A stretch of DNA of 58,896 bases, counting the filler, from Sphacelaria rigidula (Eukaryota): the NCBI GenBank assembly GCA_964200075.2. It is 10 parts of 10 records of this genome, joined end to end, with 100 filler letters (N's around TTAATTAATTAA, not from the genome) between each part and the next. Parts side by side here need not be neighbours in the genome. Positions count along the whole stretch, not along the records: positions 53,098 to 58,896 come from CAXNAA020024377.1; 9 more parts are not named here. One strand, given 5' to 3'. Position 1 is the first letter of the stretch; the number at the start of each line of letters is the position of its first letter. Below the pieces are notes generated by a model. The model was not told the DNA's origin. It was given only the letters and a program-made list of their open reading frames with translations, and did no database searches. Positions 5,801 through 58,896 of the stretch are shown piece by piece. A program made the translations under genes and the position numbers.

Positions 5801-5900
5801 NNNNNNNNNNNNNNNNNNNNNNNNNNNNNNNNNNNNNNNNNNNNTTAATTAATTAANNNNNNNNNNNNNNNNNNNNNNNNNNNNNNNNNNNNNNNNNNNN
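5801..5900. other. Artificial contig-joining linker (N44-TTAATTAATTAA-N44), first of nine
   Basis: Identical 100-nt linkers with six-frame stops at 5801-5900, 11701-11800, 17601-17700, 23501-23600, 29401-29500, 35301-35400, 41200-41299, 47099-47198, 52998-53097. Contigs between them are 5800 or 5799 bp in decreasing order. Confidence 0.98.
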
Positions 5901-46808: not shown

Positions 46809-48722
46809 CTGAGTTTCTGGTGGGATCGTAATCGGGTCGAATCCGCACAGGAAAATACGTATTTCCTTTCCGACTCTCGCCCAGCGGAACCGTGACAAGG
46901 AGAGCTGGCGAAGGAATGTGGTACAGAAAAACAGGCCGCGGGCGCGCTGATCCGAAAGTTTCACTTTATGGCCAGAGGCGAGCACCGAGAGAAAGATGGG
47001 TCGATCTATCGAGACGATAAACTTGTTCTGAGGAGGGGGGGGGGGGGGGGGGGGTCTCTTTTTTTTTCTTTTCTTTATTTTTTGTACCTCGAACCCCCNN
47101 NNNNNNNNNNNNNNNNNNNNNNNNNNNNNNNNNNNNNNNNNNTTAATTAATTAANNNNNNNNNNNNNNNNNNNNNNNNNNNNNNNNNNNNNNNNNNNNGA
47201 CGTGGCGGGCCCAGACCACCGTTCCTCGGCTCCTCGATCCCCCCGTCCTTTCTCCCCCCCCTCCCACTATCGGCCCCCCCCCCCCCCCCCCTGGGCGCCC
47301 TTCACAGCGCAGATTTCTCTGGAGAAGGACGCAATGCTCACGCGGCTTACAGAGGAAGGCCCTCCACTATAGTCTGAACACCCGAGCTCTTATTGATTGA
47401 GTGATGGTCACACATCAAGTAATCCCGTAGAGGTAAAGATATGAATCGGTCCGAAGATAGACGTGAGCAAGGTTAATACAGACGGGAAAGAGCAAATATG
47501 GAGATAGAAAGAGCAAATAGATTAAACTGAAGAGCGAGAAAGCAGAGCAAAAACAAGAACGGAAAATAAGCGCACGGGTATAGACAGAAGATCAAGTGAA
47601 GGAAAGGAACGGGAAAATAACAAACGTCAAAATAGGTCTAATATCGGTCCTCCTGCTGAAAAGAAGATTCGCCGGCCCCTGTCGCATGGCTTCAGGTAAG
47701 AAGGCAAGGGAATACTAGCCAAAAATCACAAAACTACAAAAAAATGAAAAAGGGCGTGGACGCACGTTGCGACTCAACTGTATGGGAACGACGCTATTTG
47801 GACATGAGCTCTCGTCCGCGAATTCTGCAAGCCAGACACAAACAGTGCTCCTCTACACCATTGAAACAAGGCACAAAATAATGTTATGCAGGACAAGGAT
47901 TACGTTTTCCCCGAAGAAAGGACGACCTCTGACAAATAAACAGGACTTGAACCTGGGTTCCTTCGGCGATGCCAAATCCAAGGAAGCCCTTGAGCTAGAC
48001 CCAACAGACGACACCGTTGCTCTATATTGTGGGGGGTGCTTACGCCCTGTAAGAACACGCCAAGGATAAACGCTGCGGGTGGGATCTTCTCCACACAGCA
48101 TTGAGGTGTTTGTCTCCAGGCACAATCACCAATTGTTTGAAACCCCGTGAGTATGCCCGAAAGGTCCAACGTGAGAGAAATGGCAATATCTGATAGAGCA
48201 AGTGCGTGGGTACCCTATTTTGGTACTTTATGCCAGAGTCGTACACCTTGCCTGCTACCACGGGCCCGTGGAAACGTGACCTAGGGATAACAAAGCATTG
48301 CGGTCGTCACCTCTGGCCTCCCGCTGGCGCACACGAGGCACAGTATCGCCCGCAAGAAGGTCTCCGGCGAATTGAACTTGAGTAGGTCTGACGACATCAT
48401 GCGATGGCCGACCTTTTATCAGAGTAAGGTAGCGAAGAAAGTTTCACACGTGCAACACGGCGAAAAACTATCTTCACCTAATAATAGCAACATCAAAACA
48501 AGAAGGGGAAGCACCGTACCACTACCACGGCTCGATGCAACGTTCACGAACCCTACACCGACCTACCTGGATGATGGAGTATTTCGTCTGTGACACGCAG
48601 CAAGTAACACGCTAACAAGTGTGTATGCAACACAAAGTTATTTCACAATTCGGAAATGGGGTCATCCCGATCGACGCCTGAAGTACAACGCGTTGAGAAC
48701 ACCATTGATGATATCTACCTAC

Positions 48723-50607
48723 CTCCTCGTACAGATCCGCCGCCTCCATGTAGCGCCCAGACATACCCAGCGACCGCGCGGCCTGAGGCAATGTACGAAA
48801 TTTCAAATTCGGTAGTTCCCCATAGGGTAGTGATTCACAACGAGTTCGAGTTGTGGTCGACCTTCCCGTTGGCGCGGAAACAAACGTCACGTCGCATGCA
48901 CTATCGATTCACATATTCTCGTGTGGAGCCTGTTACAAGCAGCTTCAACGGAACAGGTCAAGGGGGGTGATTGTTGTGGCTCAAATGGAATCATGAAAAC
49001 AGTACTAGATGAAAGGCTGTGTACACAACATTGCCAACGGCGCGTTGCGCGATCGATGCCGTGTGTCGAGTTGAACGATGATTTTGCAGGTGGTAGACGA
49101 CACAAACCTGGAACAGCCATCGTCAAGAGGCAAGCGGCTAAAAGTGCTGGAAAGTTATAACAACTTTGGCACCACAGTAAGTGTAGATTAAGTCTCACGT
49201 TGAGATGACATCGGTCGGCTGCCACGTCGTAGCACGAATTCACCAAATATAAACCAGCGGCCTTCAAGAAGTGTACGACGGCAAGCGACTGGTTCCTGCT
49301 TCGGAGAGAGAAACAGGAAGCAGGAATGTACTTGTTCATTTTGAAACAAGTTCCACAGTGTTTGCGCGTTAGGTTTAAGTTTGAATGCACTGAGGCAGAG
49401 CTCATATTCTCGTTGTGTGTGCGACAGTGTTCAGTTAGTAAGTATGTAGTACTCATTCACCTTCTCCATTGTATACTGCAGTCCAGTAGTAGGACCTTGT
49501 TCAAGTGCTACTAGATTCATTTCTCGACAGAAGGGGTAATGCGGTGTAAGGAAAGACTCACCTGTCTTTCTCCATGAGTTCTGCAACTTCTAATTCAAGC
49601 CGCGCTGCCGTCGAGAAGCGCCAGATTTGGCAGTACAGGTTGATCGCAGTCAGGTAGCAAGTTGCAGCCTCTGTTACATGTCAAGTGGTGACGTGGAAGG
49701 GACAATGGTTGTACCGACCAGTGGCGAGTTCACATCGGTGTCAGCTACCATATACAAAAACTCCTGCTCTCCAGAACGAGGTCTTTCCTTGCTACGGCCG
49801 TGGCATGCGTACTCGGAATATAGCGCGACCTTCTTCTCGGGGTCTGCCGCTTGCAATTCGTGTTGTTTCACTCCACATAGATTGGTGGCGCTTTGGCCTT
49901 CCAATCTTTTCAGCTAGATGCCATGTATGTCTAGGTCGGCTGCAAATGAACCCTCAGCGGGCTAAATTTGATATCCACACCTTGTGGGTCCTCCTTGCTG
50001 AAGCAAAGGGCGGCTTCGTGATAGAATGAAGCCGCTACCTCCGGTCTCTTCAGCTTTTCCTCCATTCGTCCGCTGCTTTTATATGCAACTCCGGCATCTT
50101 GGACTGAATTAAGAACGATAGTGCGGGAAAATGACGTGGTGACGTTCTGCAATTATGTCCAGAGACAACAGAGGCCTCATGTCAAAGGGCGTGGGGTCGA
50201 CCGATGACGGTTAGAATTTTCCCCAGGTGTGTGGTGTGTTTATAACGTTCAGACTGGAGCCGACGTGGGGTCTGTCGTTGATATTGCACCAGAGTCACCA
50301 TCTCGATGCATTTATTGAATTGATAATAGTGCGCCATTGGCTATTGACAAGTAACTGCCATTCAGCGGGTTCTACTCCTTCCTGGCGTGGCCGCAGCGGC
50401 CAACTTGGCGGCCTTTCTTCGACTGTTTATCCCTTGACGTGCGCAGGGGACCGCGTGCTTTAGCGTGCTTCCATTTGCGCTAAACAACCCACATCGCTTG
50501 GCCACCCGGAAGCATTGAGCTGCCTGTTCTTGGTAGCAAGATGCGTCCTGATACTTGTAGCGCAAGACAACGCTGTCCGTGTACATCCGCCTCTGCGCCA
50601 TTTGAGC
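48723..50607 (-). CDS. Alpha-SNAP-like (soluble NSF attachment protein family) helical-repeat protein, partial
   Basis: Phase-compatible GT-AG exons 50607-50493, 50103-49981, 49670-49562, 49295-49199, 48782-48723 give KYQDASCYQEQAAQCFRVAKRFQDAGVAY...AASFYHEAALCFSKEDPQEAATCYLTAINLYCQIWRFSTAAR...AVVHFLKAAGLY...GRYMEAADLYEE, colinear with alpha-SNAP. Confidence 0.8.
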
Positions 50608-51990
50608 CTGCAGTATCGCAGCATGTGGCATTGTTCGACAAACTAAAAATAAACGAAATACACTCACCGGTGTTTCACGCACATCTGATCATCTCCATTC
50701 CTGTTCCAAAGTCGACTCGAGCCGAGTGCAGTGCAGTGCAGTGCAGTGCACTTCAGTGCAGAGCAGTATAATACAGAAAACACAGCCCAGTCCAGAGATA
50801 CCCTTGGAATAGAATTGGAAACACATACCCCCCCCCCCCTTTCCTCCCCGGAGGGGGGGTGTATCAATTTTGGCTACCGAAAAGTTGAATGTTTCAATAA
50901 TTTCAGTGTCTGTGATAAATAGATGTATGTTTTCCTTGCGTCTCTTTGCATCGCACCGTAGACACCATGCTTCCGTTGCGTGGCACTAGCTATCCTGCCT
51001 GCGGACAAGTTTTCACAAAACATGCTAGTCGAATTCCTGGGTGGTTCATGACTATCTGGGAATATAGGAGTCGGAACGACATGGCAATGCACAAAGAAGC
51101 TCACAACGATGGTCTCGGTTCGTACTGACAGTGGGTTGCTAACCCGCCATGACCGCACCATGTCGAGATTTCGCACGATGCTGGTGTAGCGAAGTTACTT
51201 GATATATTATTATGGTTATCGGACTCGTGAGAAAATATTTTGACCGCACTGCGGTGGGGTCCCTGCTGTGTTGTGGACGCCCACCCCCCGCTGGAGAATC
51301 ACTCACACAATTGATTGAGATTAGGGCGAAATCCCTCGCCGATATCACGCCCCCCCCTCCCAAATCCACCGAATTTCACTCCAGGGGCCTGCATATCTTG
51401 AAAGTTGGGATATGGATACCGCCGTCCGATCCAGTACACAACTCAGTTCGCTTTTCCTGTTGTTTTACGTAGGTTGGGGTGTGTCATGCCTCCACCTCGA
51501 AGAGCTCTCTGTTTTTTGGTAGTTATTGCTTGTTGAGGGCACGTAGCCGCGGTCACTGCATCGGACAGGCAACGTCTCGTCGAAGTAGCCATAGACCATC
51601 TCATCAAGTCCTCACGTCCTCGTCGGGAAAGACGAGCAAGACGTAGACAACTGAGTGTGTGTTCGACAATGGTGACACATTACAGACAGGCAGTACTGCG
51701 TCGTAGCGCATCATAGCAGAACTGTAAGCACGGTCACTGCCTGTTGCACTACTGCAGCACCAACAGACAGACAGGAGAAAAGGGTAGCACGGCAACACCA
51801 CTGAAGGTAGCCAGCGTAATTCTGGTGGCCAACATCTAGCCCACCTGCCGCACCCATCTGTCGGCCTTTTCACGGTAGCTCATGATCATATGATCCGCCA
51901 TACTTCTTCCCCTTTTTCGTACTCGTGCTAGATTCCTTCCGGTGGATATCGACTTGTGTACAGCGAGCACAGCACAACCGCAGAACTTAC

Positions 51991-52618
51991 ATGTACGTCA
52001 TATACAAGAAGGACCCCGAGGATCCAGAAAGAGCGGTGCAATCGAACGGTCAATCGAAATGGATCTGTACACCACGGGTCTGAAAAAGAGTGTTCGGGGC
52101 AACTGTGATGGACGGGGGGGAGTGGAACTACTAAACGACTGAAGACAGTGTCTGGGTAGATGTTCAACGAGGCGGATCTATTGCCGTTGCCGGTGGTGTC
52201 TCCCACTCCTGGAATCGAATCGCCGTCAGGCTTATATCGAGTTCGAAAGGCGAACGAAGATGCAGCACATTCCAGTTCCGCAGAAGGCATAGCGGCTGCG
52301 AGCAGCCAGGCAGACACTAGGGCAGACGCCGCTGCTCCACCCCCTCGGCGGCGAGGTCTGCTCGACAAAAACGCACGTTGCAATGTGGTTGAAGCTTGTG
52401 CTATGGCGGGCGACAACATCGCACTTGCGTTGACCGACGGGCGCCTGTGCCACGGTAATTTATCACGGATTCTGAAACTGGATGCGAAAAGTGTTGATGG
52501 CGATGATCCATTCGAAGGAGGGAGAGCCCGGTCAGGTTGGAGCACGTGGAATTCTAGGCATGGGAAGGTCTTGGAGTTGCATCATTCACCTGCACACGAC
52601 GCGCTCATGACACTCGAG
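51991..52618 (+). CDS. 5' exons of an unknown gene, possibly HPS3-like (BLOC-2) beta-propeller
   Basis: ATG 51991, exon to 52077, tag|ATG at 52160, donor ctcgag|gtagac at 52618. GKVLELHHSPAHDALMTLE resembles the HPS3 N-terminal GRVLRLAYSEAGDYLVAIE as I recall it. Confidence 0.4.
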
Positions 52619-53891
52619 GTAGACACTGGCGATTTGATTAGTTGTCGTTGTCTCTCATGATAACTCACCCCGCATGTTTCTGTAGATTGAGCATCAAGCG
52701 CTTGTTCAACTTGCACCTGTCCATTTGAACGCGCTTGGATTCTGTTCCGAGGTTTGGTCGCAGGTGTTCCGCCGACGTGAAGATCACCTTACTTACCACC
52801 CCCGAAAGAAGCAAGACAAGATGGAGTCAAAGAATTTAATCTGGTATGTAATCACCAATATGCGAAAACAAATAGAGACTAGTTGAAGGTAACTTCTCAT
52901 CGAAGAGTGATGCCGCGACAGCCTTCCCCCCCCCCCCCCTCCCCCGCCCCCCTAGCACTCCACCGAGTGTCCGCCCGACCCGCACCCCCACAGGAACNNN
53001 NNNNNNNNNNNNNNNNNNNNNNNNNNNNNNNNNNNNNNNNNTTAATTAATTAANNNNNNNNNNNNNNNNNNNNNNNNNNNNNNNNNNNNNNNNNNNNGAC
53101 GGCGGAGCCCGAGCGGGGAAATGAGGTGTTTTTCAGTTTTTCGTTTTTTTTCCCTCATTTTTTTTTTTTTTTTGGGGGGGGGGGTTGGGACAGTTTTCAG
53201 GAGAAATGAACCCTGCTCTTCGGCCTAATCTCAATTTTTAGATTTGTGATTTGAAACGAAGCATGGAGAACCAGAGGTATCAAAAGAAAGGGACCCCGAA
53301 TTGTTTTTTTCAAAGGCTCGAGCGCTCTCGTGAAAAAATGGTCGTCACCACACCAAGCGCCCTAAACCAGTAAAAATGAATAAAACCAACTTCACCCACA
53401 TTGTTTTGTTGATTATGCCCAAGCCATGGCCTCACAAAACACAAAGTATCAATACACAGACACCAAACGTGGGCCGGTGAGTCGCCTGCAAAATACTGTT
53501 CCGCATTTGTACCGATCCTGTTACTAAACGACCCACTTGTCGGCCATTATTCAGAGTCGGAACCTAACATTTGGTATGGACAATGAACAGGGCATAGTAA
53601 AACAAATTACCACTGTACATACAGTTTTTTCTTCCATGAGTTAAGGGGAATGATCAGTCTTCAGGTATCATTAAAATGCCCTCAATTTATGAGGGGAAAA
53701 AAAAAACTTGTGTGCAGTTTTTCTTTTCTTCGTTGTGCCCTGTTTACTGTCCATAACAAATTTTGGGGTCCAACTCTAAATATTGGCCGATAAATAGGCC
53801 TGCAAACTATAAATTCGCTTCTAGACTGGCCCAGCTCGTAGTCAGAAGATCATTGCCATCGCATCCCTACAAAGCCGGGTTTTCGCCGGTC

Positions 53892-53996
53892 GAGGCTCGC
53901 AGTCGATTACCAAGCACGAAGCGCCGTGATGTGTTCGGCGAGTTGCATGAAGGGTGAGCTGCATTCTGCCGAGATTGTTCGGCCCGAAGCATACTC
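53892..53996 (+). repeat. Dispersed repeat fragment (copy of 1-104)
   Basis: Colinear with window positions 1-104. Confidence 0.85.
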
Positions 53997-54185
53997 GTCA
54001 TCTTGGCAGTTGGATGACAGCCTACAATGAGTTTGCTTCATTTTCTGGTATCGTCACTTTCAGAGACAGCCAAAGTAGGGGGGGGGGGGGGGGGGGCGTC
54101 CTCTTTTTTTTCTTTCCTTAGTTTTGGGACCCTCCACCACCCTGTGGGGGGGGGTGTGCTTGTTTTAGGGATTCCNNNNNNNNNN

Positions 54186-54270
54186 TCCTTTCGAAACGGC
54201 GGGGGGGGGGGGGGGGGGGGGGTGGCCGGGGCGTACTCATTTGTTGCTTGCCTTAGTCGTGTGACCATCT
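54186..54270 (-). mobile_element. Poly(C)-tailed short repeat next to an assembly gap
   Basis: Minus strand reads atggtcacacgactaaggcaagcaacaaatgagtacgcccc, a long C run, then gccgtttcgaaagga (head motif again). Confidence 0.8.
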
Positions 54271-54625
54271 ACCAACCTGTCGGGGAGGATGTGCATGATT
54301 TAGGGATTCACACTCCATGATTGGCGTTGGCCACGACGTAGCACCTGGCGTTTGCAAGCTTCGATTGCATCACCGATAGATACCACGGCGATCCATGCAC
54401 ACACTAAAGTCGCCTTTGCACAAATCCTTAACAGTGTAGTGTGTCGGGTACTTGAGGTAACACCCGCCGTATCATGACCAGCCATTGCAAATGCCAAACT
54501 ACAGGTAACCTTGCGATTCATCTCTTCCGATACGCGAAATGAACGTTTTACGGTGTCGATCTGCGGGAAATATGAATTTACACAGTAGATACATTCCATT
54601 TTTTGAGCGGATGCACGACACTCAC

Positions 54626-57600
54626 CTGAGGGTCCTTCACGATGCCGAGTGCCAGGCCACTGTTGGCCTTGTCGTGGATATGCTGCAGGTAGCTCACGAA
54701 AACGAAGGCTATCGGGAGGACGAAGAAGGGGCTCAGATTCAACCTGCCACCTCAAATCAAGATTCGCAACGGTGCAGTGGACAAAGAAGTTATCACACAC
54801 GCACGCAATGCACAAAAAGTTGCAGTCAAGATGGCAGTCGTATGTGCATTCGATACAAAGCTTTTGATCGGTCAAAATTCTTCAGCTCGGCGTTGCCACA
54901 CAGTACAGTATCGTACACGCGACACGGTGCAGCCTCATGAAACCGTGAAGCAGCGATGGCACAGGGAGCCACAGCAGTATATTGAACAATGACGGCAATT
55001 GGATAAAAACAAGTTCGGAGGCTAATTCACTACTTCAGTCGCAGCGCTGGTCGAGTCCAGTGTCGTTTTTCCGCGCGGTGTTCACGAGATATCTGGATAC
55101 ACGCTGTAGTCTCACCACGCCACGAGGAAGGGCAAAATGCTGAGGGGCATGTACCATATTGGACCAAAGTTCCACACGTTGTAGGTGGTGTTGAGCGATC
55201 GAAGTTTGTCCCTCGAGCTTGGTTGAGAGGCAACTCGCTGCGACCTGCCCTTGGGCGGCTGATCATGCATGTACAATAAGTAAGGTAACGTCACAACAAG
55301 CACAGAGCAGAAACACAGAACGAACAGACGGTTTCAGCACGATGCAGTGTGTTTCTTGAAGGCGTGCGTGAACTATATCGCAACGCATGAGAGGCTTGCA
55401 CAGAAAATGACCACCGACCGAAAAAAGAGGCACCGACGTACAGGATGATGAAGACAAGCGGCCCAGCTGCAGCCTGTAATATGAGCCAACTCGCATCGCC
55501 AATCATCACTCACAACCCTAGTAGCCAGCCCTCGCCATCAGTAGAGCTTATCATCTACACTCTTCTCCCCTCTCGGGAGATTTTTTGAACGCTGGCAACA
55601 CCAGATTCATTAGACTCAACAGAAAAAATGAATATACCTCACGGTTCAGTGTCAAAAGCAAGAGAGGCGTAACACGGTATCACCTCATCATTTTACGGTG
55701 TGAAAATACGAGGTTTGATAGTTTGAACGTATTTCAAAACGATGAATCTTACCGCGTGGCCTGCAGCTCTCCTGCGGAAATCTTCCCTTCCTTTTTTCTC
55801 TTCCACAGCCGCCTCGTCCTGTGCGTCGCGGATCGACTTCGGGACTTTGTCGGCTGCGCCGACCACGAGAATCCTGAGCAGCAGCAGAACATGCTCTACT
55901 ACCAACACCAGCATCACCTGCACACGCAAGTTCATCGTTTTTCAATCGGACCGTTCGTTGTCAGGGAATTCTCGAGCCACCGTATTTGAGAATGCCACCA
56001 AGTCCATCAGACCCTGTACTGCTGCTCTTCAGAATTCAAAGGTTTGACTCAACATCGTATCAGACGATCATACCATCAGCACAGACGCAAATCAAGCTGG
56101 TTGCTGAGGAGTGTACAACAATCTCAAGCCGGGGAACGACCACAACAAATAAACGTGCTTCGGCTCGTGAACCAGCATGTGAAGGCCTTCCCATACGCAA
56201 TTCGCATCCACAAAATCCAGTATATCGATCTACCGTTCACCTGCCCCTGCGTGGATCCCATGTGTACGGACAATTTTTCCGGCACGTAAGACGACACGTT
56301 ATCAGACATTACCACCATGAGGAGATTGGTGAGGCACGCAACAACGGCGATGATTTCCAGGCACAGCTGCCACGCTCCGATGGATGACTCAGCGTGCGCC
56401 TGGATGAGGGCGAAAATAAACAGAAAAACAAGCAAAGAGGGGCACGAGTTAGATCGCACGACCAACGCGAGTTGTCAAGGTACAGTCATTTCTCTCACGT
56501 CGATTTCTTCAAACATGAGTAACGTCCACTCATGCTAGTGATTTACAGCAAGCAGAGCGGTCTACTAACCGTGCAGAGGACGACTGTTCGGAGTTGCCGA
56601 GCTTCGATGGAAACAACTGTACAGGTGGGTCCGAAAAAGCGCGTCGAAATCACCGCAATGATAGCACTGTAGAACCACCCCCAAACGTTCAAGATTACCA
56701 AAAAAACACATCGGAGAGCTGAATGGAGGAACACCTGTCCAAGAGGAACGCGCACGCCCGAGTCGGTAGAGAACATGACACCCTCATCACGTCACAAAAC
56801 GACGATCGACCCCCCGAATCAAGCAAAACCAGACCATACCGAGATCATCAACCGTCGACCACGGCAAAAAGGCCTCGCCTACGGTGCTCTGTTCATCATA
56901 CTCTGTTAGGGCGGTACGTCAACAAAATGTAAGTTTTTCAACAAGAACATTGACCGAACACTTTTGAGCTGAGAAGAGTCATCCATCATCTACCTGTGCT
57001 ACCTACTCGGGTTTTACAGGGTCCACACTTCAGTACCATGACCATAACCAACGAAAGGCGAGAAAACACACCGGAGGGCGCTTGGTCTTGAGGAGCATAC
57101 TGAGGTCGAGCCGGACCTCCCAGATGTTGTTAAGCATGGCGAATAGGGGCGCCAGGGGGAACACGGAGCCGAACATGGCGAGGTATCCGAACTGAAGCAC
57201 CATCTCTAGGTAGTCTGACTCCACGCTGGCAGGGTCCATCTTGAGCTCGTCGAACACATCTTCGGCACTCACGGTGCCAGTGTGCTTCACGATGTAGCGC
57301 GGCTCCATGGGGGGCTGTCGAAGGGTGGCGAATTGAACAAAAAAATAGAAAGAGAGAGATTCAAATTGTTGACTCACGTGAGCAAGTGAGAACAATTTCA
57401 CAGTACGCACCATGGGAAGGAGAAAGGTGCATTCATCAATTAAACGAAGACGGCTAGCGTGCACGGTGAGAACAAGCTTTTTTTGCGACGATCAGGAACA
57501 CCAACATCGCCACGGTATCAGCCGGGGAGCACATTCACTTACGGTGAGTCCAGAGAGACGACGTCCACACTCCTGCAAGCCAAGAGTGGAGTACAATTGT

Positions 57601-58278
57601 GATTGGAACTAATGCAGCAAGATGATAATCTCACGAGCACGGCTCACACAACCTTTCAAAGGATACAAGACATGGCACAGCAGGGAAAGGCGTGAGCGTG
57701 CGAGCAGGTGTGGATCGACAGCTGGCGAGCGAAAAGACGAACGTGACTGACACCAAAAGGGTGAAACCCCGGTATTGGTTGATCCCGCTTTTGTATCTTC
57801 TCACGTTTTTTTTTTCCTTGCGGTCCTTGAGCTTGCGCATCACCACCGGCTGGTACTTCTCCACGAGCTGCGCGATGAACTGCTTCACCATCAGCATGGT
57901 CGTGAGCAGAGACCGCAGACGGTTCAGGTCCTTGAGCCAGAAGGCCACGTAGAAGAGAGCGCAGTACGAGTTTATGAACTGGAACGCGAACATCTGAACG
58001 GCGACAAAGAAACCAAGCACGAAATGCAAACGAAGCGATCAAGTATGATGGGTGCGCAACCGTGGAAATGGAAAACATACCCGTGTGACATCACACCGTA
58101 CGACTCGTGCGTCCTGTACCTTTATGACGAGCATATTCTTCTTGCGGACGTCCGTGGAGTGTTCCTCGAAATTGTTGAGAGCCTTCGCCAGAACGCCGTA
58201 CAGAGCACCGTTCACAATCGGAACGATGCTGTACGCGAGCAGAGGAATGTACTGCCGGTACGAGTCCTGCCCGTACAC
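54626..58278 (-). CDS. Anoctamin/TMEM16-family protein (ANO10/TMEM16K-like) with C-terminal membrane-hairpin extension, partial
   Basis: GT-AG exons 58278-58120, 57993-57805 (FAFQFINSYCALFYVAF), 57572-57543, 57314-57072 (DYLEMVLQFGYLAMFGSVFPLAPLFAMLNNIWEVRLD), 56399-56241 (SIGAWQ), 55917-55753 (VVEHVLLLL), 55258-55116, 54743-54626; all phases compatible. Confidence 0.92.
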
Positions 58279-58704
58279 CTGTCATCAAACACGACCAAAC
58301 GCGACGAGGCATGTCGCGCGAGGCAAGAGACAAACGAGCTAGAGTTTTGCACGCGTACATCGGAGAGCTGAGTTGGACCTTACAGCTCATACGCACGCAC
58401 CCAGCGAGGGTTGAGGATTAGAGCAACCGCACTAAGAACGAAAAGTATGGTACTGCTGTCATCTATCCTGAGACATCGCCACGGGAACACCCAACACCAT
58501 ACTGTACCATGTGGGCGAAGCACAAAAGAAACCTAGGTGGATGAAAACACCGTTGGATGCAACACCTGAAAAACGTAATTCACGTGTGAACATCTGACCT
58601 CTCCACCGCTGACGACCATTTACGCTACAATAGCCGTGCAACTTTCTTAGTCGGATAGGCGACATGTTCAGGTGAAGCAGCAGTCATGCCTGGGTCAAAA
58701 TAAG

Positions 58705-58896
58705 CAGGGAGGGATACGTGACCCACGTGACACATTTGGGCCATTTAGCGCTACGTGAGGTTTGATTTTTGGACGGGGCAAATGCAACGTAACGTAATGT
58801 AACATGTCGACCTTGAAGCAGTGTCTCTTGGTGTTTTCCACATGTAAAAAAAAACTGTTTTTGTGATTTTTTTAACATGACACGTGACACGTAACA
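58705..58896 (+). mobile_element. hAT-like MITE, left half (cut by window end)
   Basis: caggga...cacgtgacacatttg...ttggacggg.caaatg.aacg.aacgt...cttgaagcag.gtctcttgg, colinear with 24497-24713. Confidence 0.85.

What the first reader, a model, noticed from the sequence alone, without database searches (positions are those of the whole stretch)
54626..55917. Anoctamin appears fused to an extended-synaptotagmin-like module (predicted scramblase plus SMP lipid-transfer fusion)
Seen: after the last anoctamin helix (VVEHVLLLL...) the frame does not stop; it splices in compatible phases (0, then TG|G) into exons 55258-55116 and 54743-54626, giving NFGPIWYMPLSILPFLVAWLNLSPFFVLPIAFVFVSYLQHIHDKANSGLALGIVKDPQ followed by another donor (cag|gtgagt). 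Known: TMEM16K/ANO10 are ER lipid scramblases; extended synaptotagmins/tricalbins begin with a hydrophobic hairpin and an amphipathic linker just before the LPxW..D.E..W.N start of the SMP domain. Inference: this hairpin-linker has that pattern, so the protein may carry an SMP (and C2) module, covalently coupling lipid transfer at a contact site to scrambling, a pairing usually made by separate proteins (ATG2-ATG9, VPS13A-XK). The SMP domain is not in this contig. I recall similar architectures in oomycete predictions but cannot verify that.
Basis: partly seen in the sequence, partly recalled or inferred. Interest (0 to 1): 0.8.

Follow-up and report, generated by a model that had tools for sequence, protein, structure and literature searches.

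The report
Scramblase fused to lipid-transfer protein
In a brown alga, RNA shows that a TMEM16-type lipid scramblase gene is spliced in frame onto the membrane hairpin of an extended-synaptotagmin-like lipid-transfer protein, so the two activities that cells normally pair through separate proteins appear to be joined in a single chain.

Summary

- **Splicing:** RNA-like contigs from three runs splice the last anoctamin helix exon (55917-55753) to 55258-55116 and then to 54743-54626, in frame. They leave the genome at the predicted donor and run on for 1575-2966 nt found nowhere in the window.
- **Next residues:** the first ten residues beyond the donor (VLKMVTNFLP) match the conserved lead-in to the SMP domain in relatives.
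- **Relatives:** the 392-aa spliced model aligns end to end with proteins carrying Anoctamin, hairpin, SMP_LBD and C2. Named examples come from Tribonema minus, T. gayanum and Epipyxis.
- **Hairpin homology:** a profile of 16 relatives' hairpin regions scores the window's two exons at 62 bits, against at most 5.8 for shuffles.
- **Tree:** the window's anoctamin sits inside the SMP-bearing clade.
- **Closest solved structures:** TMEM16K and E-Syt2.
- **Not seen:** the alga's own SMP and C2 sequence.
- **Literature:** ten full-text searches found no description of this fusion.

The deposited gene model is truncated and partly wrong.

The parts
58120..58278 (-). Anoctamin exon. By alignment it is the TM4 region; the helix number is recalled. 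The contig's upstream exon is not in the window.
   Evidence: RNA joint 58120/57993 and a loose end at 58280. Aligns to TMEM16K from residue 358.
57805..57993 (-). Anoctamin exon covering TM5-TM6. It includes the Glu that aligns with TMEM16K E448.
   Evidence: RNA joints 58120/57993 and 57805/57314; alignment.
57072..57314 (-). Anoctamin exon covering TM7-TM8. The acidic Ca2+-site positions are kept: DYLE and NNIWEVRLD align with TMEM16A E702, E705, E734 and D738.
   Evidence: RNA joints; alignments to 5oc9, 6bgi and 5nl2; 100% identical to P0001, which carries PF04547.
56241..56399 (-). Anoctamin exon, TM9 region.
   Evidence: RNA joints 57072/56399 and 56241/55917 (cut +1 and cut +4); tblastn hits from the fused relatives.
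55753..55917 (-). Last anoctamin exon: TM10 (VVEHVLLLL...) plus a charged cytosolic tail. There is no stop; it ends at a GT donor in phase 0.
   Evidence: Translation. It lies on the same RNA contig as the two hairpin exons in X1, X2 and X3 (table 8).
55116..55258 (-). Linker plus the first hydrophobic half of the hairpin (FGPIWYMPLSILPFLVAW). It ends in a split codon TG|G.
   Evidence: Translation; joints 55753/55258 and 55116/54743; profile score and hydropathy.
54626..54743 (-). Second half of the hairpin plus the amphipathic linker ending GIVKDPQ. A GT donor follows at 54625-54624.
   Evidence: Translation. Contigs leave the genome here and run on for 185, 1575 and 2966 nt (tables 7 and 8). 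Aligns to the pre-SMP linker of 16 relatives.
53874..54455 (.). High-copy repeat with a 10-N scaffold gap (54176-54185), lying in the intron after the last visible exon. This is probably why the assembly loses the rest of the gene.
   Evidence: Summed contig depth is 10^3-10^5 here against about 65 for single-copy DNA in X5 (table 2). A degenerate 97-nt duplication flanks the gap.

Best explanation
The contig 53098-58896 holds the 3' half of the membrane domain of a TMEM16K-like anoctamin gene of Sphacelaria rigidula. It does not end after TM10.

Its mRNA is spliced in frame to two further exons. These encode a roughly 45-residue cytosolic linker, a proline-containing hydrophobic hairpin made of two stretches of about 16 residues, and an amphipathic linker. 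The mRNA then goes on into sequence missing from this contig. By homology that sequence is an E-Syt/tricalbin-type SMP lipid-transfer domain followed by one or two C2 domains.

Proposed mechanism (inferred, not shown):
- The protein sits in the ER as a TMEM16 dimer.
- The hairpin returns the chain to the cytosolic face.
- The C2 domain(s) bind another membrane, and Ca2+ would act on them.
- The SMP domain carries glycerophospholipids to or from the cytosolic ER leaflet.
- The covalently attached scramblase, whose TM6-8 Ca2+ site is kept, re-equilibrates the two ER leaflets at that same spot.
- TM10 forms the TMEM16 dimer interface (recalled from published structures). The two C-terminal tails would therefore emerge side by side, which should favour the dimerisation that SMP domains need.
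For: Shown:
- One RNA contig in each of three runs links 30 nt of exon 56241-56399, the TM10 exon and both hairpin exons, with GT..AG joints that are absent from the DNA run.
- The frame is open over 392 codons.
- The contigs continue 1575 nt (X1) and 2966 nt (X2) past the last exon. Relatives need about 530-550 residues there.
- The first 10 codons of the continuation read VLKMVTNFLP. All 16 relatives aligned have a hydrophobic-[EKD]-x-P-x-W lead-in to the SMP domain at that place.
- The model aligns end to end with P0007 (E 6e-76), P0010, P0015 and P0012, and from model residue 124 to 391 with P0063. Each alignment stops 18-20 residues before that protein's SMP_LBD.
- The hairpin exons score 62.0 bits against the relatives' profile, versus at most 5.8 for shuffles.
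- In a tree of 109 anoctamin rows, a branch with 99% SH-aLRT groups the window with 14 SMP-bearing rows and 2 others.
- The closest solved structures are TMEM16K (5oc9, E 1e-25 for the window's protein) and, for the C-terminal half of relative P0007, E-Syt2 SMP-C2 (4p42, E 1.7e-41).
- The acidic Ca2+-site positions of TM6-8 are conserved.
- P0168 from a Tribonema gayanum transcriptome is a Trinity ORF with the same fusion, which is independent transcript-level support in a relative.

Inferred: ER location, lipid transfer, scrambling, Ca2+ control and dimer templating. These follow from what is known of TMEM16K, E-Syts and Ist2-Osh6 (PMC12617493 and PMC13286939: abstracts and passages read).
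Against: - The alga's own SMP and C2 sequence was never seen. Only 30 nt beyond the hairpin are known.
- X1-X3 are labelled RNA only as a guess. They belong to one study and are k-mer contigs, not reads.
- The link between exon 56241-56399 and the TM10 exon rests on 22-30 nt.
- An in-frame ATG lies in the intron 10 nt upstream of exon 55258 (55270-55268). A separate hairpin-SMP transcript from an internal start therefore cannot be excluded.
- Reading through the 55753 donor would stop after 20 codons, giving a plain anoctamin.
- In the clade, 2 of the 16 other rows (P0025, P0125) have no SMP. The most similar hit over TM7-10, P0006 from Phaeothamnion, ends 29 residues after TM10. These may be truncated models or truly unfused genes.
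- The tree used the quick method, and the window's branch is long (1.19).
- No function was tested.
Confidence: 0.85

Rival explanations
1. There are two neighbouring genes, an anoctamin and an E-Syt-like gene. They are sometimes joined by read-through transcription and splicing, but the working proteins are separate.
For: An in-frame ATG lies just upstream of exon 55258 in the intron. The hairpin-SMP-C2 part on its own has the layout of a complete E-Syt or tricalbin. The upstream and downstream RNA contigs have different depth figures, although the tool states that such figures cannot rank parts of a gene.
Against: The RNA contigs join across the intron, with no contig starting inside it. The same collinear fusion is predicted in many relatives, including a Trinity transcript. 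It defines a distinct anoctamin clade, which would not be expected from occasional read-through. The frame is kept across three junctions.
Confidence: 0.07
2. The anoctamin merely carries a C-terminal hairpin extension. What follows in this species is untranslated or degenerate rather than a working SMP-C2 module.
For: Only 10 residues beyond the hairpin were seen. P0012 and P0171 have SMP but no C2 hit, so the module varies between relatives.
Against: The 10 residues match the conserved SMP lead-in. The contig runs on for 2966 nt. The linker ending GIVKDPQ is conserved with proteins that all continue into SMP.
Confidence: 0.05
3. The joined RNA contigs are assembly chimeras of two transcripts that share short words.
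For: The contigs come from a k-mer assembler. The runs belong to a single study.
Against: The same joints occur in three runs, with 118-145 nt on the shorter side and canonical GT..AG ends. They reproduce exactly the domain order seen in relatives.
Confidence: 0.03

Closest known systems
Human TMEM16K / anoctamin-10 (PDB 5oc9), an ER lipid scramblase
   Same: It is the best solved match to the window's anoctamin part (E 1.1e-25) and to relative P0007 (E 4.6e-56). The acidic positions that align with E448, D497, E500, E529 and D533 are kept. Their role as Ca2+ ligands is recalled.
   Different: TMEM16K ends with a cytosolic helix after TM10. Here the chain goes on into a membrane hairpin and, by homology, an SMP-C2 module.
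Extended synaptotagmins and yeast tricalbins (E-Syt2, PDB 4p42)
   Same: The layout is the same: hydrophobic hairpin, short amphipathic linker, SMP domain, then C2 domain(s). P0007 residues 882-1210 match E-Syt2 SMP-C2A (E 1.7e-41). After the fused proteins, fungal tricalbins are the next best hits.
   Different: E-Syts and tricalbins start at the hairpin. Here the hairpin follows a ten-helix scramblase. Only 1-2 C2 domains are detected in relatives, against 3-5 in E-Syts (abstract of PMC4922586).
Yeast Ist2 with Osh6/7
   Same: A TMEM16-family ER scramblase is physically coupled to a shuttle-type lipid-transfer protein at ER-plasma-membrane contacts, and scrambling supports transfer (PMC12617493 abstract and passages; PMC8282664 abstract).
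   Different: In yeast the coupling is non-covalent, through a motif in a long disordered tail, and the transfer protein is an ORP, not an SMP protein. Here the link is a peptide bond.
ATG2-ATG9 and VPS13A-XK pairs (recalled, not checked here)
   Same: A lipid-transfer protein is paired with a scramblase in the membrane it serves.
   Different: Those are bridge-type transfer proteins bound to separate scramblases of unrelated folds.
Predicted proteins with the same fusion: Tribonema minus KAG5191948.1 (P0169), Tribonema gayanum P0168, Epipyxis sp. P0010 and unnamed records P0007, P0063, P0164-P0167
   Same: They share the domain order, the hairpin and the linker motifs, and the anoctamin clade.
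   Different: They are only 30-39% identical to the window's model. Where they are named at all, it is only as 'calcium-activated chloride channel-domain-containing protein'.

Membership tests
TMEM16 / anoctamin (PF04547) | Match to the Anoctamin domain profile | tested here: met
   P0001, the deposited protein of this contig, is 100% identical to exon 57072-57314 and carries PF04547. The model aligns to TMEM16K at E 1e-25.
TMEM16 / anoctamin (PF04547) | Acidic Ca2+-site residues on TM6, TM7 and TM8 | tested here: met
   Glu, Asp, Glu, Glu and Asp align with TMEM16K E448, D497, E500, E529 and D533, and with TMEM16A E702, E705, E734 and D738. The role of these residues is recalled.
TMEM16 / anoctamin (PF04547) | Complete ten-helix domain with the N-terminal cytosolic domain | not testable with these tools
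   The contig starts inside the gene. The upstream exon is a loose end at 58280.
TMEM16 / anoctamin (PF04547) | Lipid scrambling or ion conduction | not testable with these tools
   This needs reconstitution assays.
Extended synaptotagmin / tricalbin | Hydrophobic hairpin anchor just before the SMP domain | tested here: met
   Two hydrophobic stretches of about 16 residues are separated by a turn at N-L-S-P, with hydropathy peaks of 2.3 and 2.9. They align with the relatives' hairpins.
Extended synaptotagmin / tricalbin | SMP (TULIP) lipid-binding domain | tested here: inconclusive
   It is not in the window. Only the 10-residue lead-in was seen in RNA. It is present in 14 of the 16 other clade members.
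Extended synaptotagmin / tricalbin | One or more C2 domains after the SMP domain | not testable with these tools
   The sequence lies outside the contig. Present in 6 of 7 and 10 of 11 fused relatives.
Anoctamin-hairpin-SMP-C2 fusion clade | Single transcript and single reading frame across the TM10-to-hairpin junction | tested here: met
   RNA joints in three runs; 392 codons with no stop.
Anoctamin-hairpin-SMP-C2 fusion clade | Collinear homology through the hairpin and linker to fused proteins | tested here: met
   End-to-end blastp alignments; 62.0 bits against the hairpin profile versus at most 5.8 for shuffles.
Anoctamin-hairpin-SMP-C2 fusion clade | Anoctamin part groups with fused proteins in a tree | tested here: met
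   A 99% SH-aLRT branch encloses the window, 14 SMP rows and 2 others out of 109 rows. The quick method was used and the window's branch is long.

The most novel reading that the evidence does not exclude
This is a natural 'Rosetta stone' fusion. In a clade of ochrophyte algae, and perhaps independently in the lineage of P0062, an ER TMEM16K-type scramblase and an E-Syt-type SMP-C2 shuttle form one Ca2+-controlled machine, with the scramblase dimer holding the SMP dimer in place. That would mean shuttle-type SMP transfer needs local scrambling just as bridge-type transfer does. It would also predict a direct TMEM16K-E-Syt partnership in animals and an Ist2-tricalbin partnership in fungi.
Probability: 0.45. 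Interest if true: 0.85.

Novelty: new variant of a known kind. Interest (0 to 1): 0.72.

Why it matters
Current work holds that lipid-transfer proteins act on the cytosolic leaflet and therefore need scramblases to keep bilayers balanced. The known pairings (ATG2-ATG9, VPS13A-XK, Ist2-Osh6) are between separate proteins. For SMP-domain shuttles such as E-Syts and tricalbins, none of the papers seen here names a scramblase partner.

A conserved covalent fusion of a TMEM16K-like scramblase to an E-Syt-like module would be strong comparative evidence that these two activities belong together. It also offers a single polypeptide in which the coupling, its stoichiometry and its Ca2+ control can be tested directly. 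It points to testable partnerships in animals and fungi.

On the practical side, the deposited gene model for this contig is truncated and includes intron sequence.

Tried and rejected
- **Whole-genome search:** none is possible, because no genome is held for this window.
- **Earlier notes of this scan:** none found.
- **RNA holders:** The look-up of sequencing runs listed no holder on record as RNA. X1-X4 are RNA only as a guess. I treated X1-X3 as RNA because they carry GT..AG joints and have no cover over introns that a contig joins across.
- **Continuation in the window:** the 30-nt continuation gave 0 matches with up to 3 mismatches.
- **Hairpin exon 1 as query:** the 47-aa query against longer proteins gave 3 candidates, none scoring.
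- **81-aa anoctamin exon as query:** this found only the contig's own deposited protein among 176 candidates. The word index was too coarse, so I switched to the full HMMER scan.
- **Pfam on minus-strand frames:** I scanned 123 of the 192 frames listed. There was no SMP or C2; the only real hits were alpha-SNAP pieces on another contig of the window.
- **Rfam on 53098-54700:** nothing found, so the high-copy repeat is not a known RNA family.
- **My own candidate mini-exon at about 57573-57544:** rejected, because the RNA joins 57805 directly to 57314.
- **Candidate next exon at about 54566-54516 (IDTVKRSF...):** rejected, because the contigs lie on nothing below 54624 in this stretch.
- **Intron cover:** no RNA contig covers intron 55259-55752 or starts inside it. 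This is a blank, not proof that an internal start is absent.
- **Literature:** ten full-text searches found no paper describing an anoctamin-SMP fusion. Subscription journals and supplements were not searched.
- **Not run:** structure prediction and complex prediction, because the tools return no inter-domain geometry and the window holds no SMP sequence.

Full report
**What the window is.** The window is ten pieces of about 5.8 kb joined by artificial spacers (44 N, TTAATTAATTAA, 44 N) every 5900 bases. The finding lies in the last piece, 53098-58896. That is 5799 nt, the same length as the contig on record for the only database protein matching it: P0001, 'unnamed protein product, partial [Sphacelaria rigidula]', a brown alga. 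The other pieces are therefore probably unrelated contigs, and 'this contig' means 53098-58896. No whole genome is held.

**The observation.** On the minus strand, exon 55917-55753 encodes the last anoctamin helix and a charged tail without a stop.

I laid contigs of three RNA-like runs (X1-X3) and one DNA run (X5) on the contig. X1-X3 show joints with GT..AG ends, on the minus strand, at:
- 58120/57993
- 57805/57314
- 57072/56399
- 56241/55917
- 55753/55258
- 55116/54743

X5 shows none of them, and a single 4494-nt contig spans 54241-58734. In each RNA run one contig carries 22-30 nt of exon 56241-56399, the TM10 exon and both hairpin exons.

A model spliced from these coordinates is an open frame of 392 codons.

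**What follows the last exon.** At 54626/54624 the contigs leave the genome and continue for 185 nt (X3), 1575 nt (X1) and 2966 nt (X2) that lie on nothing in 53098-54623. The 30 nt shown are absent from the whole window. They read VLKMVTNFLP in frame.

Downstream of the exon lies a very high-copy repeat (53874-54455) with a 10-N gap and a degraded 97-nt duplication. This probably broke the assembly. No SMP or C2 signal was found in 123 minus-strand frames, nor by tblastn with 11 fused relatives over the whole window.

**Relatives.** A full HMMER scan with P0001 gave 3712 hits at E up to 0.001.
- Of 27 long or top-ranked hits scanned with Pfam, 7 carry Anoctamin plus SMP_LBD, and 6 of these also carry C2.
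- A local SMP profile, built from those seven, finds SMP in 8 of the 150 listed representatives, at ranks 3, 6, 8, 11, 13, 34, 58 and 59.
- A search with the TM10-hairpin-SMP-C2 part of P0007 returned 27 proteins. Eleven have Anoctamin plus an SMP family, and 10 of those also have C2. The remaining 16 are tricalbins and other C2 proteins.
- Named members are Tribonema minus KAG5191948.1, a Tribonema gayanum Trinity ORF, Epipyxis sp. PR26KG, an entry in a Bolivina argentea transcriptome set, and Clim_evm6s164.

**Does the window's gene belong with them?**
- The spliced model aligns end to end with P0007 (426-866, E 6e-76), P0010, P0015 and P0012, and from model residue 124 to 391 with P0063. 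Each alignment ends 18-20 residues before that protein's SMP_LBD start.
- A profile of the hairpin-linker region of 16 fused proteins, built without the window, scores the window's 87 residues at 62.0 bits. The best of 1000 shuffles (995 scored) reaches 5.8 bits.
- All 16 continue after the G-I/V-x-D motif with a short amphipathic stretch ending in P-x-W and then the SMP start. The window's RNA continuation fits this.
- I built a tree of 109 anoctamin rows. Before building it I excluded P0001-P0005 and dropped 10 near-identical cluster members. A 99% SH-aLRT branch groups the window with 14 SMP-bearing rows plus P0025 and P0125.
- The fifteenth SMP row, P0062, lies elsewhere on a long branch. 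The method was 'quick' and the window's own branch is long, so the placement is good but not final.

**What the two halves are.**
- The window's anoctamin part is closest to human TMEM16K (5oc9, E 1.1e-25). It keeps the acidic positions aligned with TMEM16K E448, D497, E500, E529 and D533 and with TMEM16A E702, E705, E734 and D738. Their role as Ca2+ ligands is recalled.
- In relative P0007 the C-terminal half matches the E-Syt2 SMP-C2 crystal structure (4p42, E 1.7e-41).
- The hairpin is two hydrophobic stretches of about 16 residues with prolines and a tight turn. That is too short for two full spans and resembles the E-Syt and tricalbin anchor.
- Because the end of TM10 is cytosolic, a hairpin puts the SMP domain back in the cytosol, so the topology is coherent. 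This is an inference.

**Mechanism.** The single transcript and frame, the homology, and the conserved Ca2+-site residues are shown. The rest is inferred:
- an ER-resident dimeric scramblase;
- its C-terminal tails carrying an SMP dimer and C2 domain(s) to a partner membrane;
- the SMP moving lipid at the cytosolic leaflet while the attached scramblase rebalances the ER bilayer, both under Ca2+ control.

The nearest functional precedent is yeast Ist2, a TMEM16 scramblase that recruits Osh6/7 and whose scrambling supports transfer (PMC12617493 and PMC13286939: abstracts and passages read; PMC8282664: abstract). Neither PMC12617493 nor PMC13286939 mentions a natural TMEM16-SMP fusion in the passages I searched.

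**Against, and open.**
- The alga's SMP and C2 sequence was not seen.
- The runs are RNA only as a guess, belong to one study and are contigs.
- An in-frame ATG at 55270-55268 could serve an internal start.
- Read-through at 55753 would stop after 20 codons.
- Two clade members and the Phaeothamnion hit P0006 lack SMP in their models.

**Novelty.** The fusion sits in public protein sets under generic names. Ten full-text searches found no paper describing it. Subscription journals and supplements were not covered. I rate it a new variant of a known kind: known domains and a known functional pairing, here joined covalently and conserved in a clade.

**Annotation.** The deposited model P0001 reads 54 residues of intron between 57805 and 57314, and it stops before TM9, TM10 and the hairpin.

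Noticed in passing
window 5801-5900 and every 5900 bases thereafter, e.g. 52998-53097: The window is ten pieces of about 5.8 kb joined by an artificial spacer (44 N, TTAATTAATTAA, 44 N). Neighbouring pieces are probably unrelated contigs of a fragmented assembly.
   Followed up: partly
window 57315-57804 and 56399-54626: The deposited protein P0001 translates 54 residues of intron (LVLTVHAS...ATLRQ) that the RNA splices out. It ends at ...KTKRP and so misses TM9, TM10 and the hairpin exons.
   Followed up: yes
window 53874-54455: A very high-copy element: summed contig depth is 10^3-10^5 in both RNA-like and DNA runs, against about 65 for single-copy DNA. It holds poly-G/C runs, a 10-N gap and a degraded 97-nt duplication. 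There is no Rfam match.
   Followed up: partly
window 48284-50688, minus strand (another piece): Four frames match the alpha-SNAP family PF14938 in profile order (best E 4e-6). This is a multi-exon SNAP gene on a different contig.
   Followed up: no
window 55270-55268, minus strand: An ATG in frame with exon 55258-55116 lies in the intron just before the acceptor. It is a possible alternative start for a stand-alone hairpin-SMP protein, but no RNA contig was seen starting there.
   Followed up: partly
P0062 (Clim_evm6s164), protein: It carries Anoctamin, SMP and C2 but lies outside the main fused clade on a long branch, and its hairpin aligns poorly. It may be an independent fusion or a misplaced row.
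   Followed up: no
window 52160-52660, plus strand (another piece): A 166-codon open frame starting with ATG, with no family assigned. It was not examined further.
   Followed up: no
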